In this document: one piece after another, positions 51,239 to 53,518 of the stretch
How positions within the stretch are numbered: position 1 is the first letter of the stretch
Layout: each line of letters opens with the position of its first letter
Origin: an uncultured Gemmatimonadales bacterium
GTDB taxonomy: Bacteria > Gemmatimonadota > Gemmatimonadetes > Gemmatimonadales > GWC2-71-9
Direction of reading: 5' to 3'
Length of the DNA stretch: 64,000 nt
Assembly: GCA_963842945.1 (NCBI GenBank)
Contig: CAWJIM010000023.1
Coordinates: forward strand, 288,001 to 352,000
Position numbers and translations under genes: made by a program
Notes under the pieces: generated by a model
What the model was told of the DNA's origin: nothing
The model's database searches: none
What the model saw: only the letters and a program-made list of their open reading frames with translations

Positions 51239-51973
51239 CTACAATGCCAGAAAAACATCATACAACGCATGCGTCCATGCGGTGATCCCGAACCCGCGCA
51301 GCAGGTAGAGCGCACTGAAGAGGAGACCGGCGATAGCGCGGAAGGTGAACGAGCCCAAGGCGAACCGCTCGCCGTAGGCGCCCACATAGTGGAAGGCCGC
51401 GAAGATGAGGGCGCCCAGGATTACCGCGAAGAGGCTTGCGCTCTGCCGCGACCAGCCGAAGCCTTTCCTCGCAATCAGCATGAGCCCTGAGACGAGCAGT
51501 ACGCGGAACACAAGCTCTTCGTAGATGCCGGCTCCGAGCGACACCATCACCTGAGCGGGAAGGCCGAGGGGCGCCGGGGCGATGGCCAGACGGGGAAGGA
51601 GCAGACCGGTAAGCGTCCCCGCGACAAGGCCAAACACCAGCCCGTAGGCGACCGATTCCGCCGCCATGAATCCAAAGTATCGGAGCCGAATTCCACCCGA
51701 GCCGCGAATATCTCTCCAGACCAGCGCGGCTCCTCCACCCACCAGGAGCAACCCAAACACGGCCAATCCGTATCGGCCACCGAAGCCAACGAACAGTTGC
51801 TTCAGCAGCACGTCCGCGCCGTTTCGAACCCGCACCATTTCGAGCCGGGAAAGCAGAAACGCTAACGCTTCGTACGTGACCAGGAGCGGGAAGGCAAAGC
51901 TCAAGCTGTAGCGTGGCGACCGTGAGACGCGCCAGTAGTTGGCGGGAAGGGCGAGGCGGGTTGAGGCGGTCAT
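51239..51973 (-). CDS. CPBP (Abi/CAAX) family intramembrane metalloprotease
   Basis: YEELVFR, FAAFHY and WTHALYD motifs; multiple TM helices. Confidence 0.9.
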   Translation of the reverse strand: MTASTRLALPANYWRVSRSPRYSLSFAFPLLVTYEALAFLLSRLEMVRVRNGADVLLKQLFVGFGGRYGLAVFGLLLVGGGAALVWRDIRGSGGIRLRYFGFMAAESVAYGLVFGLVAGTLTGLLLPRLAIAPAPLGLPAQVMVSLGAGIYEELVFRVLLVSGLMLIARKGFGWSRQSASLFAVILGALIFAAFHYVGAYGERFALGSFTFRAIAGLLFSALYLLRGFGITAWTHALYDVFLAL

Positions 51974-51974
51974 G

Positions 51975-52001
51975 AAAAAAAGGGGCCGCTTGAGCGGCCC
52001 C
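51975..52001 (-). terminator. Intrinsic terminator
   Basis: Minus strand GGGGCCGC-TCAA-GCGGCCCC followed by T7. Confidence 0.85.
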
Positions 52002-52120
52002 CCCAGGTTCGAAGTGTCGCCTGGGTCTTAGCTTGCAGCGTTAACTAGCGGCCGCAGGCGACCCTTGACTCTGTAGACAATGGATCACCTCCTCGGTTGC
52101 AGGTGGAACATGGTATTGCG
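51975..52120 (-). ncRNA. Candidate small RNA / micro-ORF transcript with an extended Shine-Dalgarno
   Basis: Bounded by promoter and terminator; contains AGGAGGTGATCCA directly before an 11-codon TTG ORF (52080-52045). Confidence 0.55.
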
Positions 52121-52126
52121 GTAATA

Positions 52127-52156
52127 ATTGTAGCAACATCCGCCGGCGCGTTGCAA
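52127..52156 (-). promoter_or_regulatory. sigma70 promoter TTGCAA-N18-TACAAT with extended -10
   Basis: -10 at 52127-52132 preceded by TGc; -35 at 52151-52156. Confidence 0.65.
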
Positions 52157-52195
52157 GCCTCTTCCGTTTGGAATGGACGCCCGCAACATTGCGCC

Positions 52196-53518
52196 ATGCC
52201 GTCCACCTCGGGGGCCTATCGGGCTGTCATTCGGATCGGCACAGCGGTGGCTCCCGCACTGGGCCTTCTTCGTCCCCGAATCCGGGCCGGGCTGCGGGCC
52301 CGACTGAATGCCGGTGAACGGCTCCTGGACTGGTCCCGATCGCACCGGGACCTGAACCGAGCCCTCGTCTGGTTCCACGCGGCCTCGGTGGGAGAGGGCC
52401 GCCAGGCCGAGAGCGTGCTGCTCGCGCTGCGTCGACGCTGCCCCGAGTGCCAGATCGTGTATACCCATTTCAGTCCGTCTGCGGAGCAGCTGGCGGAGGG
52501 AATGGCCTCCGATGCTTCGGACTACCTCCCGTACGATCTCCCCGAGAACGTGGATCGGCTGCTGCGGGCACTCCAGCCCGACCTGCTGGTCTTTGCCAAG
52601 CTCGACGTCTGGCCCGAGCTGTCCACCCGAGCGGCCGGCAGCGGGGTCGACGTAGCTCTCATCGCGGCCACGGTAAGCCGTGGGAGCAGCCGTCTTGGCT
52701 GGCTCGCTCGGCGGCTGCTGGAAGCCGGTTACCGCGCCATCACTGCCGCCGCCGCGGTCGCGCCCGACGACGCGTCCCGGCTCGAGCTGTTGGGCGTTGC
52801 TCCGGAGCGGATCCAGATCCTGGGCGATCCACGCTTCGACAGCGTGGTCGCGCGAGTCAAGGCAGTCGCCTCCGACGACCCACTGCTCCGGCTGGGGGGC
52901 GGAGCGCCCACCCTGGTGGCCGGGTCGACCTGGCCCAAAGATGAGGCCGTTCTGCTCCGTGCCTTTGCCGGGGTGGTTCGAGAACGGCCCGATGCGAGAC
53001 TGATCCTGGTTCCCCACGAGCCCACCACCGCGCACCTGGCCCGGATCGAGCGGAGCACGCAGTCTCTCAAACTTCCGTCGCCGGTGCGGCTCAGTAACGC
53101 AACCGGAAGCGATTCCATCGTGCTGGGAGATCGAGTCGGGGTACTCGCGGCCCTGTATGGTGCGGGCACTATGGCGTACGTCGGGGGAGGCTTTGGGCGA
53201 GCCGGTCTCCACTCCGTGCTCGAGCCCGCTGCCTGGGGACTGCCGGTGCTGTTTGGTCCCCGCTGGCGGAACAGTCGTGACGCGGAGCTACTACTTCAGG
53301 CCGGCGCAGCCCGGTCTCTGACGCACGGCCGGGTGGGGCCGGCGGCTCAGGGGCTTCAGCGGCAGTGGCAGAGCTGGATCAGCGATGAAGGCGCTCGGGA
53401 GACCCAAGGCGCAATGGCGCGGGAGGTGGTGAATTCAGGAGTGGGTGCTTCGGAGCAAACCGCCGACCTGCTCGCCCAGCTTATTTCACGACGACGCCCT
53501 CGAAAGTTACGCTCCTAG
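52196..53518 (+). CDS. waaA: 3-deoxy-D-manno-octulosonic acid (Kdo) transferase
   Basis: WFHAASVGE, YLPYD, GDPRFD, VAGSTW, AYVGGGF and HSVLEPAA..PVLFGP motifs. Confidence 0.92.
   Translation: MPSTSGAYRAVIRIGTAVAPALGLLRPRIRAGLRARLNAGERLLDWSRSHRDLNRALVWFHAASVGEGRQAESVLLALRRRCPECQIVYTHFSPSAEQLAEGMASDASDYLPYDLPENVDRLLRALQPDLLVFAKLDVWPELSTRAAGSGVDVALIAATVSRGSSRLGWLARRLLEAGYRAITAAAAVAPDDASRLELLGVAPERIQILGDPRFDSVVARVKAVASDDPLLRLGGGAPTLVAGSTWPKDEAVLLRAFAGVVRERPDARLILVPHEPTTAHLARIERSTQSLKLPSPVRLSNATGSDSIVLGDRVGVLAALYGAGTMAYVGGGFGRAGLHSVLEPAAWGLPVLFGPRWRNSRDAELLLQAGAARSLTHGRVGPAAQGLQRQWQSWISDEGARETQGAMAREVVNSGVGASEQTADLLAQLISRRRPRKLRS

What the first reader, a model, noticed from the sequence alone, without database searches (positions are those of the whole stretch)
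51975..52156. Self-contained small transcription unit carrying a 13-nt perfect complement of the 16S rRNA 3' tail
Seen: on the minus strand, TTGCAA-N18-(TGc)TACAAT is followed by ~145 nt and then a GC stem with U7. The RNA contains AGGAGGUGAUCCA (52093-52081), directly abutting a UUG start for MSTESRVACGR* (52080-52045). An upstream micro-ORF MFHLQPRR* (52111-52085) ends inside the same motif on tandem AGG codons. Established: bacterial 16S ends in ...UGGAUCACCUCCUU, ordinary SD duplexes are much shorter, and very strong SD pairing can hold 30S subunits and stabilise RNAs (STAB-SD). Inference: an unannotated small RNA or micropeptide gene built to capture ribosomes, as a 30S decoy, a stabilised peptide message or a ribosome-sensing leader. 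I do not recognise it as a named family.
Basis: partly seen in the sequence, partly recalled or inferred. Interest (0 to 1): 0.78.

Follow-up and report, generated by a model that had tools for sequence, protein, structure and literature searches.

The report
Ribosome-docking mini-mRNA, Gemmatimonadota variant
This is a real, conserved small RNA gene of about 145 bases whose start pairs with the tail of the ribosome's 16S RNA in front of an 11-codon frame. It is a variant, in another bacterial phylum, of the published but still unexplained 'rre' mini-mRNAs of Alphaproteobacteria.

Summary
The 13-mer is the exact complement of this genome's own 16S 3' end. The unit is conserved: 20 of 24 same-genus genomes keep window 52112-51975 at 81-94% identity. 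A stricter hallmark motif occurs once per genome in 124 of 401 sampled genomes of the phylum, against 1 reversed-control match.

It is not a new kind. It has the architecture of the rreB/rreR small mRNAs (PMC5711450) and of Rfam CC2171: own promoter, extended Shine-Dalgarno, non-AUG start, tiny ORF, hairpin over the start, terminator. It fails formal membership: 25.9 bits against a cut-off of 75, and 13 rather than at least 16 complementary bases.

Selection acts on the RNA. Across 34 relatives, 40 of the 42 bases from 52093 to 52052 are invariant and 2 nearly so. The peptides differ between three sub-types. The in-frame stop is always kept.

Likely mechanism: a free toehold lets the 30S tail displace internal 16S-tail mimics, and translation stays weak. 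The physiological role is unknown. The upstream micro-ORF is not conserved.

This scan had already found the same variant in another genome (e1-3556339).

The parts
52127..52156 (-). Sigma-70-type promoter: -35 TTGCAA (52156-52151), 18-base spacer, extended -10 TG-n-TACAAT (52135-52127). The inferred start of the RNA is near 52122-52119.
   Evidence: One search found 1 site, with 0.1 expected from shuffles. A TTGC.. -35 and a TA...T -10 are kept at the same distance in most genus relatives although the spacer differs (alignment). The start of the RNA is inferred, not mapped.
52101..52106 (-). Leader segment CCACCU, an upstream look-alike of the 16S tail. It can pair with AGGUG of the Shine-Dalgarno region.
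   Evidence: It is paired in the minimum-free-energy fold of the window RNA and in the type B consensus fold (cols 19-24 with 33-39). It is nearly invariant in 31 of 34 type A sequences and replaced in L018, L024 and L026.
52081..52093 (-). Extended Shine-Dalgarno sequence AGGAGGUGAUCCA. It makes 13 Watson-Crick pairs with the 16S 3' tail, plus one possible G-U pair at 52094.
   Evidence: It is invariant in 34 of 34 type A sequences. The computed duplex with the own 16S tail is -30.7 kcal/mol, against -12.2 for a plain AAGGAGGA control.
52045..52080 (-). Small ORF: UUG start, 10 further sense codons (STESRVACGR), UAG stop. Codons 2, 3, 5 and 6 (UCU, ACA, UCA, AGG) are rare in this genome.
   Evidence: The stop is at the same codon in 34 of 34 type A sequences: TAG 21, TGA 12, TAA 1, TGG 0 (my count). 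Each of the four rare codons makes up 6.3% or less of its synonymous set in 26 long ORFs of the window.
52056..52064 (-). Internal 16S-tail mimic GGGUCGCCU, inside the ORF. It can pair either with AGGUGAUCC of the Shine-Dalgarno region or with CAGGCGAC downstream.
   Evidence: The RNAalifold consensus of type A pairs it with the Shine-Dalgarno region. The window's minimum-free-energy fold pairs it with 52023-52016. The two folds differ by 2.8 kcal/mol. The motif G[AG]U[CU][AG]CC lies inside the ORF in 52 of 53 Gemmatimonadota elements.
52016..52023 (-). 3' partner CAGGCGAC of the mimic; an alternative helix.
   Evidence: Invariant apart from an A/G change that keeps pairing. The homologous helix in type B shows 2 compensatory pairs.
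51975..52004 (-). Intrinsic terminator: GC-rich stem-loop 52004-51982 followed by U7 at 51981-51975.
   Evidence: The stem is kept in all type A sequences with variable loops. In type B, 10 of 14 terminator pairs show compensatory changes.
52085..52111 (-). Upstream micro-ORF MFHLQPRR-stop. It is present here but not conserved, and is probably not a gene.
   Evidence: The ATG reads CTG in L013, L014 and L028, and the region is replaced in L018, L024 and L026.
51239..51973 (-). Downstream neighbour: Rce1-like/CPBP membrane protease ORF. Its ATG follows the U-tract after one base.
   Evidence: Pfam PF02517, E 1.3e-09. An orthologue lies downstream in 24 of 35 type A loci.
52196..53518 (+). Divergent upstream neighbour: Kdo transferase (waaA).
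   Evidence: Pfam PF04413, E 1.2e-39. An orthologue lies divergently upstream in 27 of 35 type A loci, 1 of 9 type B and 1 of 9 type C.

Best explanation
Window 52156-51975 (minus strand) is a stand-alone gene for a structured RNA of about 145 bases. It belongs to the 'extended Shine-Dalgarno mini-mRNA' kind, whose characterised examples are rreB and rreR of Alphaproteobacteria. This is a Gemmatimonadota variant.

Proposed mechanism:
1. In the free RNA, most of the extended Shine-Dalgarno sequence and the UUG start are buried. Two internal look-alikes of the 16S tail do this: CCACCU upstream and GGGUCGCCU inside the ORF. A few bases (ACCGA, plus one G of the motif) stay single-stranded.
2. These free bases act as a toehold. 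The 16S 3' tail pairs perfectly where the mimic needs G-U wobbles, so it displaces the mimics and docks the 30S subunit.
3. The freed mimic can then pair with CAGGCGAC downstream, so docking changes the fold.
4. The over-long pairing that runs up to the start codon, the UUG start and rare early codons keep translation of the 11-codon frame weak. Ribosomes that do translate stop at a conserved stop codon in a hairpin loop.

The conserved product is the RNA and its engagement with the ribosome, not a particular peptide.

Shown here: the sequence features, their conservation, and the predicted folds. Inferred by analogy with rreB experiments: 30S binding and weak translation. The physiological role is unknown; the most likely is ribosome-dependent control of the RNA's own fate.
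For: - Exact complement of the own 16S tail.
- Promoter and terminator predicted and kept in position in relatives.
- 20 of 24 same-genus genomes keep the block.
- GGAGGTGATCCNKTGTC matches 124 of 401 phylum genomes (125 matches), against 1 reversed-control match. 111 of the 125 starts are TTG and 14 are GTG (my tally).
- The 42 bases 52093-52052 are invariant or nearly so in 34 sequences, including every synonymous site. Flanking proteins are only 47-87% identical.
- Three sub-types carry different peptides of 11, 14 and 20-21 residues but share the Shine-Dalgarno sequence, the start, the UCU codon and the mimic. The mimic sits in a different reading frame in type C.
- Folds: window RNA -60.3 kcal/mol, z -3.82, 0 of 200 shuffles as stable. 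The Shine-Dalgarno/mimic hairpin is the consensus in types A and C. The type B internal helices are 98.9% paired with 2 compensatory pairs, against 33-52% for slid controls.
- The duplex with the 16S tail is -30.7 kcal/mol, against 11.5 kcal/mol to open the site.
- Rare codons UCU, ACA, UCA and AGG.
- The stop codon is always kept, using three different stop codons.
- Weak but consistent hits to RF01867: 25.9 bits in the window and 27.8-36.5 bits in 9 of 18 type B and C loci.
- rreB experiments show 30S co-sedimentation, weak translation limited by the long Shine-Dalgarno sequence and GTG, and a hairpin leaving only the 5' bases free (PMC5711450, abstract and sections 13, 18, 19).
Against: - No direct evidence of transcription, 30S binding or translation in any Gemmatimonadota. 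Public RNA runs gave only low-depth contigs from relatives, which also cover flanking DNA.
- Complementarity is 13 bases, not 16-17. In rreB the 5' extension was crucial for efficient ribosome association (PMC5711450, section 19), so docking may be weaker here.
- All Rfam scores are far below the cut-off. They could come from the Shine-Dalgarno motif and the terminator alone, so common descent with the alphaproteobacterial family is not shown.
- Within type A the hairpin positions never vary, so they carry no covariation. The two compensatory pairs in type B come from one sequence (L032).
- Two alternative folds are nearly isoenergetic, so the toehold-switch picture is a model and not a result.
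Confidence: 0.8

Rival explanations
1. Micropeptide gene. The 11-residue peptide MSTESRVACGR is the functional product, and the long Shine-Dalgarno sequence only tunes its synthesis.
For: The start, the frame and the stop position are kept in all 34 type A sequences. Stops switch between TAG, TAA and TGA but never TGG. Each sub-type keeps its own ORF length. Hahn et al. treat RreB and RreR as conserved small proteins (PMC5711450, sections 13, 18).
Against: Codons 1-10 show no synonymous change in 34 sequences but 2 kinds of amino-acid change, E to A and R to G. That is the opposite of a coding signature. Peptides of types A, B and C are unrelated in length and sequence, and the shared RNA motif is read in another frame in type C. 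Four of the first five sense codons are rare. Synthetic RreB and RreR were unstructured, and overproduction gave no phenotype (PMC5711450, sections 13, 18, 19).
Confidence: 0.12
2. Cis-acting leader of the CPBP gene. 30S occupancy of the small RNA controls read-through of the terminator into the downstream protease gene, whose ATG follows the U-tract after one base and has no Shine-Dalgarno sequence of its own.
For: The U7 tract ends at 51975 and the ATG is at 51973. A CPBP orthologue lies directly downstream in 24 of 35 type A loci and in one distant type C locus, L046, which also has waaA upstream. RNA contig X4, from a relative, spans the terminator into the downstream gene.
Against: CPBP is absent downstream in 11 of 35 type A loci, 9 of 9 type B and 8 of 9 type C; some of these loci have short flanks. 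The distance and sequence between terminator and ATG vary widely. The terminator is strong and conserved, and the predicted alternative folds leave it intact. The alphaproteobacterial rre genes have no conserved context (PMC5711450, section 18). Contigs cannot show a single transcript.
Confidence: 0.1
3. Non-coding trans-acting RNA. It would be a 30S decoy or sponge that titrates ribosomes, or a base-pairing regulator that uses its 16S-like segments against the Shine-Dalgarno sequences of other mRNAs.
For: Selection is on the RNA sequence. The RNA carries two 16S-tail look-alikes, CCACCU and GGGUCGCCU, that could in principle mask Shine-Dalgarno sequences in trans.
Against: The strict conservation of an in-frame start and stop is not explained. 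Overexpression of ribosome-binding rreB did not slow growth, and ribosomes far outnumber the RNA (PMC5711450, section 19). No target search was made here.
Confidence: 0.1
4. Chance match, or merely a very strong ordinary ribosome-binding site.
For: A third exact copy of the 13-mer lies in a coding region of the same genome. 9 of 100 window shuffles give a match with up to 1 mismatch.
Against: Conservation across the genus and the class at a single copy per genome, with 1 control match in 401 genomes. The 42-base invariant block.
Confidence: 0.01

Closest known systems
rre small mRNAs (rreB of Bradyrhizobiaceae, rreR of Rhodobacterales); Hahn et al., RNA Biol 2016;14:1353, PMC5711450 (abstract and sections 13, 18 and 19 read)
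   Same: - A stand-alone transcript of about 150-165 bases with its own sigma-70-type promoter and intrinsic terminator.
- A Shine-Dalgarno sequence extended in the 3' direction up to the start codon.
- A non-AUG start.
- An ORF of 11-18 codons.
- The 3' part of the Shine-Dalgarno sequence and the start buried in a conserved hairpin, with only the 5' bases free.
- One copy per genome and a variable genomic context.
- Peptides unrelated between clades.
   Different: - Phylum: Gemmatimonadota, not Alphaproteobacteria.
- 13 complementary bases here (12-16 across the phylum's sub-types) instead of 16-17.
- UUG start in 111 of 125 matches, not GUG, so the first base of the start codon does not pair with 16S.
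- An 11-codon frame.
- No experimental data.
Rfam RF01867, CC2171 (Caulobacter sRNA; the alphaproteobacterial family that includes the rre RNAs)
   Same: The consensus 5' end carries the same AGGAGGUGAUCCA followed by a start codon and UCU. It also has a long-range closing stem, internal hairpins and a terminator (alignments). A Northern band in Methylorubrum and an unknown function are reported in 10.1101/2022.01.24.477521 (passages read).
   Different: The score is 25.9 bits here and 27.8-36.5 bits in types B and C, against a gathering score of 75. The internal helices do not align.
STAB-SD / 5' mRNA stabilisers of Bacillus (cry3A and others); recalled, not looked up here
   Same: A Shine-Dalgarno-like sequence near the 5' end that binds the 30S subunit and protects the RNA.
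   Different: STAB-SD lies in the leader of a long mRNA and is not coupled to a start codon. Here the site sits at optimal spacing before a conserved start, a mini-ORF and a terminator.
Rfam RF02471, Ms_IGR-5 (actinobacterial sRNA); a lead from earlier notes of this scan (e1-6728785, e1-6728784)
   Same: According to those notes: a small RNA with a 16-base complement of the 16S tail and a 12-codon frame.
   Different: No match to RF02471 at E up to 10 in window 51700-52500. Its consensus was not inspected here.

Membership tests
rre small mRNAs (Hahn et al. 2016) | At least 16 bases of perfect complementarity to the 16S 3' end, including the first base of the start codon | tested here: not met
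   13 Watson-Crick pairs plus 1 possible G-U. The U of UUG faces a C in 16S. Some type C relatives reach 14-16.
rre small mRNAs (Hahn et al. 2016) | A small ORF starting directly after the complementarity region with a non-AUG start codon | tested here: met
   UUG at 52080, 11 codons.
rre small mRNAs (Hahn et al. 2016) | A stand-alone small transcript with its own promoter and terminator | tested here: inconclusive
   Both are predicted and positionally conserved. Transcript ends are not mapped, and the RNA contigs are uninformative.
rre small mRNAs (Hahn et al. 2016) | The 3' part of the extended Shine-Dalgarno sequence and the start held in a conserved hairpin, with the 5' bases free | tested here: met
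   Consensus folds of types A and C and unpaired probabilities. These are predictions only.
rre small mRNAs (Hahn et al. 2016) | Association with 30S subunits and weak translation | not testable with these tools
   Needs gradient fractionation, toeprinting and reporter fusions.
Rfam RF01867 CC2171 | Covariance-model score at or above the gathering score of 75 bits | tested here: not met
   25.9 bits. Types B and C score 27.8-36.5 bits. The same model exceeded its cut-off in 1 of 14 control genomes.
Rfam RF02471 Ms_IGR-5 | Any covariance-model match | tested here: not met
   No match at E up to 10 in 51700-52500, and none at gathering score in the whole window.
Riboswitch or attenuator leader of the CPBP gene | Obligatory linkage to the regulated downstream gene, and a fold that competes with the terminator | tested here: not met
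   CPBP is downstream in 24 of 35 type A, 0 of 9 type B and 1 of 9 type C loci. The predicted alternative folds leave the terminator intact.

The most novel reading that the evidence does not exclude
Extended Shine-Dalgarno mini-mRNAs may be a ribosome-triggered RNA switch shared by at least two phyla. The free 16S tail of an idle 30S subunit would invade through a toehold, displace built-in 16S-tail mimics and refold the RNA, so that the RNA reports the pool of free subunits. In Gemmatimonadota the element seems to have an ancestral home between waaA and a CPBP protease gene whose ATG abuts the terminator. Ribosome occupancy could therefore tune read-through into an envelope gene.
Probability: 0.12. 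Interest if true: 0.7.

Novelty: new variant of a known kind. Interest (0 to 1): 0.3.

Why it matters
The rre/CC2171 RNAs carry the longest natural Shine-Dalgarno pairings known, and no function has been assigned to them. The held library holds only three papers that cite the 2016 description, all from the same laboratory, and none on function.

The same architecture is kept at one copy per genome in about a third of sampled Gemmatimonadota. There, selection is clearly on the RNA rather than on the peptide. This widens the family beyond Alphaproteobacteria.

It also points future work at the RNA-ribosome interaction (toehold, internal 16S mimics, weak start) rather than at a micropeptide. In practice it is a recurring unannotated gene that annotation pipelines and Rfam's current model miss.

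Tried and rejected
- **Public RNA data.** Four metatranscriptome runs held 5-12% of the words of 51500-52700. When laid, they gave one or two contigs each at depth 2-3. X3 covers 51994-52221 at about 93% identity. X4 covers 51930-52109. X1 and X2 cover only parts of waaA and CPBP. Contigs show neither strand, ends nor level, and DNA carry-over is possible, so this is neither support for nor evidence against transcription.
- **Rfam at gathering score over the whole window.** No match.
- **RF02471 lead from earlier notes.** No match.
- **Upstream micro-ORF.** Rejected as a gene.
- **Chance.** Rejected.
- **Peptide homology searches.** Not possible: 11 residues is below every tool's minimum length.
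- **A covariance model of the Gemmatimonadota family.** Not built. The three sub-types differ too much in their middle parts for one alignment, so the phylum counts rest on exact patterns and are lower bounds.
- **Literature.** CC2171; the motif with sRNA (only an unrelated YbeY paper); rreB/rreR; Gemmatimonad with Shine-Dalgarno and small RNA; the title phrase of Hahn et al.. I found no report of the element outside Alphaproteobacteria and no functional follow-up. The library lacks most subscription journals. The supplements of PMC5711450 (its extended alignments) were not opened.
- **Complex prediction, structure prediction and protein searches.** Not used; they do not apply to an RNA element.

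Full report
**1. The observation**

- The promoter-like site is TTGCAA, 18 bases, TG-n-TACAAT at 52156-52127. It is the only such site in 51500-52700; shuffles gave 0.1.
- The 13-mer AGGAGGTGATCCA is at 52093-52081.
- TTG at 52080 opens STESRVACGR-stop, ending at 52045.
- ATG at 52111 opens MFHLQPRR-stop, ending at 52085.
- The terminator stem at 52004-51982 is followed by seven T.
- The ATG of an Rce1-like/CPBP ORF at 51973 comes one base after the T-run.
- A Kdo transferase gene (waaA) starts divergently at 52196, so the 223-base intergenic region is filled by this unit.

The genome's own 16S gene (L001) ends ...GGCTGGATCACCTCCTTTCTGG. The 13-mer is therefore its exact complement, with one more G-U pair possible upstream.

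The genome holds three copies of the 13-mer: the 16S gene, this site, and one inside a coding region. A single site would therefore not exclude chance. With up to one mismatch, 9 of 100 window shuffles match.

**2. Conservation**

A BLAST of 52170-51960 against 40 relatives found the block 52112-51975 at 81-94% identity in 20 of 24 same-genus genomes. The four without it are 63-84% complete. The 5' part was also found in two genomes of another family of the order.

In an alignment of 34 distinct type A sequences, 40 of the 42 bases from 52093 to 52052 are invariant, and the other 2 are at least 90% conserved. This block covers the Shine-Dalgarno sequence, the start and codons 2-10. The flanking waaA and CPBP proteins are only 47-87% identical.

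- Among the 80 with titles, 11 are Gemmatimonadota MAGs and nearly all others are Alphaproteobacteria.
- Exceptions are one Planctomycetaceae MAG and two Lachnospiraceae MAGs; the latter two have long ORFs and look like chance hits.
- I assigned eight further loci without displayed titles to Gemmatimonadota by sequence type only.

The window's organism is therefore most likely a member of Gemmatimonadota.

In 401 sampled genomes of the phylum:
- The loose pattern GGAGGTGATCCNNTG matched 194 genomes.
- The stricter GGAGGTGATCCNKTGTC matched 124 genomes, 123 of 395 at high quality. There were 125 matches, so essentially one copy per genome, against 1 match for the reversed control.
- By family: f1 76/166, f2 19/93, f4 2/7, f6 9/30, f7 17/70. 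None was found in 46 genomes of the seven remaining families (f3, f5, f8, f9, f10-f12), among them all 19 genomes from outside the window's class (f10-f12).
- By my tally of the 125 matches, 111 starts are TTG and 14 are GTG.
- These are exact-pattern lower bounds.

Two genomes flagged unpublished (G003 = L022, G089 = L187) are among the rows.

**3. What is conserved: the RNA, not a peptide**

The Gemmatimonadota elements fall into three sub-types.
- Type A: 35 distinct sequences, including the window. MSTESRVACG plus one variable residue, 11 codons.
- Type B: 9 sequences. MSTDPRTARIAGSR-like, 14 codons.
- Type C: 9 sequences. 20-21 codons containing [RW]ASDR.

All three share the following:
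- a leader with CCACC;
- the extended Shine-Dalgarno sequence;
- a TTG or GTG start, then TCT;
- a segment G[AG]U[CU][AG]CC inside the ORF. This is present in 52 of 53 elements, against 12 of 53 for the reversed control.

That segment is read in the same frame in types A and B but in another frame in type C.

Within type A, codons 1-10 show no synonymous change at all, yet two kinds of amino-acid change occur: E to A in L013 and L026, and R to G in L019.

Codons 2, 3, 5 and 6 (UCU, ACA, UCA, AGG) each make up 6.3% or less of their synonymous sets in 26 long ORFs of the window.

Against a purely non-coding reading, codon 11 varies freely (R, C, H, L, N), yet the next codon is always a stop. The counts are TAG 21, TGA 12, TAA 1 and TGG 0. 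About 7 TGG would be expected if the two purine positions varied independently, though related sequences are not independent (my count). Types B and C also keep their stops. Ribosomes therefore probably do enter and leave this frame.

**4. Structure**

The window RNA (52120-51975) folds to -60.3 kcal/mol, z -3.82, and 0 of 200 shuffles are as stable.

In that fold:
- CACCU of the leader pairs with AGGUG of the Shine-Dalgarno sequence.
- The UUG sits in a small hairpin.
- GUCGCCUG pairs with CAGGCGAC.

The consensus fold of type A instead pairs AGGUGAUCC with GGGUCGCCU, and UUG with CAA. Enforced on the window RNA, this costs only 2.8 kcal/mol more. GGGUCGCCU copies the 16S tail apart from two A-to-G changes, which turn A-U pairs into G-U pairs.

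Type C shows the same pairing across a 28-base variable loop: GGUGAUC with GAUCGCC, and UUGUCU with GGGCAA. Only pair-preserving one-sided changes occur.

Type B shows the leader/Shine-Dalgarno hairpin, a closing stem and the mimic/partner helix. 98.9% of cells are paired, against 33-52% for slid controls. There are 2 compensatory pairs, both from L032, and 7 of 500 shuffles reach the observed value. In type B, 10 of 14 terminator pairs covary.

Only ACCGA, one G, AU and A of the docking region are predicted unpaired. The computed duplex with the own 16S tail is -30.7 kcal/mol, against -12.2 for a plain control. Opening the site costs 11.5 kcal/mol.

**5. Comparison with what is known**

cmscan gave a sub-threshold match to RF01867 (CC2171): 25.9 bits, E 0.002, gathering score 75. 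The consensus of that family begins with the same motif followed by GUG UCU. Nine of 18 type B and C loci score 27.8-36.5 bits.

Earlier notes of this scan pointed me to Hahn et al. 2016 (PMC5711450). I read its abstract and sections 13, 18 and 19. It reports the following:
- rreB is a 165-base mRNA with a 17-base Shine-Dalgarno sequence, a GTG start and a 14-codon ORF.
- It co-sediments with 30S subunits.
- It is translated weakly because of the long pairing and the GTG start.
- It is predicted to expose only its 5' five bases.
- It becomes more stable when the start codon is replaced by a stop.
- It gives no growth phenotype on overexpression.
- Analogues with at least 16 complementary bases were reported only in four alphaproteobacterial orders.

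The element here shares the architecture. It fails the two formal criteria, the 16-base rule and the Rfam cut-off. It also differs in phylum and in using UUG. I therefore file it as a new variant of a known kind, not as a member.

Whether it shares descent with the alphaproteobacterial RNAs is open. The docking sequence is dictated by 16S, so it could arise by convergence.

I found no report outside Alphaproteobacteria and no functional follow-up in the held library. The same Gemmatimonadota variant was already noted by this scan in another genome (e1-3556339).

**6. Rivals**
- A micropeptide gene is unlikely, for the reasons in section 3.
- A leader of the CPBP gene is not general. CPBP follows in 24 of 35 type A loci, 0 of 9 type B and 1 of 9 type C; waaA precedes in 27, 1 and 1. 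The waaA-element-CPBP order recurs in one distant type C locus (L046). In this genome the CPBP ATG abuts the terminator, so read-through remains possible locally.
- A decoy is disfavoured by the rreB overexpression result.
- Public RNA data were uninformative.

**7. Verdict**

The kind of element is already described, and its role remains unknown. Interest is modest.

Noticed in passing
L018, L024, L026 (about 60-25 bases upstream of the Shine-Dalgarno sequence; alignment): In three genus relatives the sigma-70-like promoter and the CCACCU leader are replaced by a different segment. It carries a tandem direct repeat of about 13 bases (…CTGAACCA… twice, or …TGTTACCA… twice). This looks like a binding site for an activator, or an alternative-sigma promoter driving the same RNA.
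   Followed up: no
L178 (G112, contig 129, about 4.3 kb from that genome's normal copy): A second, diverged copy of the element in one genus relative. The leader and Shine-Dalgarno sequence are the same, with CCG before the TTG. It is followed by a different 10-codon frame that begins with a CACCUCC stretch, the core of the 16S tail itself.
   Followed up: no
window 51971-51981: The CPBP start codon follows the terminator's U-tract after one base. There is no Shine-Dalgarno sequence and no room for a promoter. The gene must be expressed by read-through, or as a leaderless or otherwise unusual transcript.
   Followed up: partly
G000 contig 19, 300012-300024 (L002): A third exact copy of the 13-mer lies inside what reads as a long coding region. 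It is most likely a chance occurrence.
   Followed up: partly
families f7 and f6: The base before the start codon is lineage-specific. CCCTTG dominates in family f7 and CCAGTG in f6, against CCATTG in the window's family. The length of pairing with 16S therefore differs by lineage.
   Followed up: partly
L030 (G005): One genus relative carries an extra C inside the docking sequence (…GATCCCATTG…). It was therefore missed by the exact-pattern counts.
   Followed up: no
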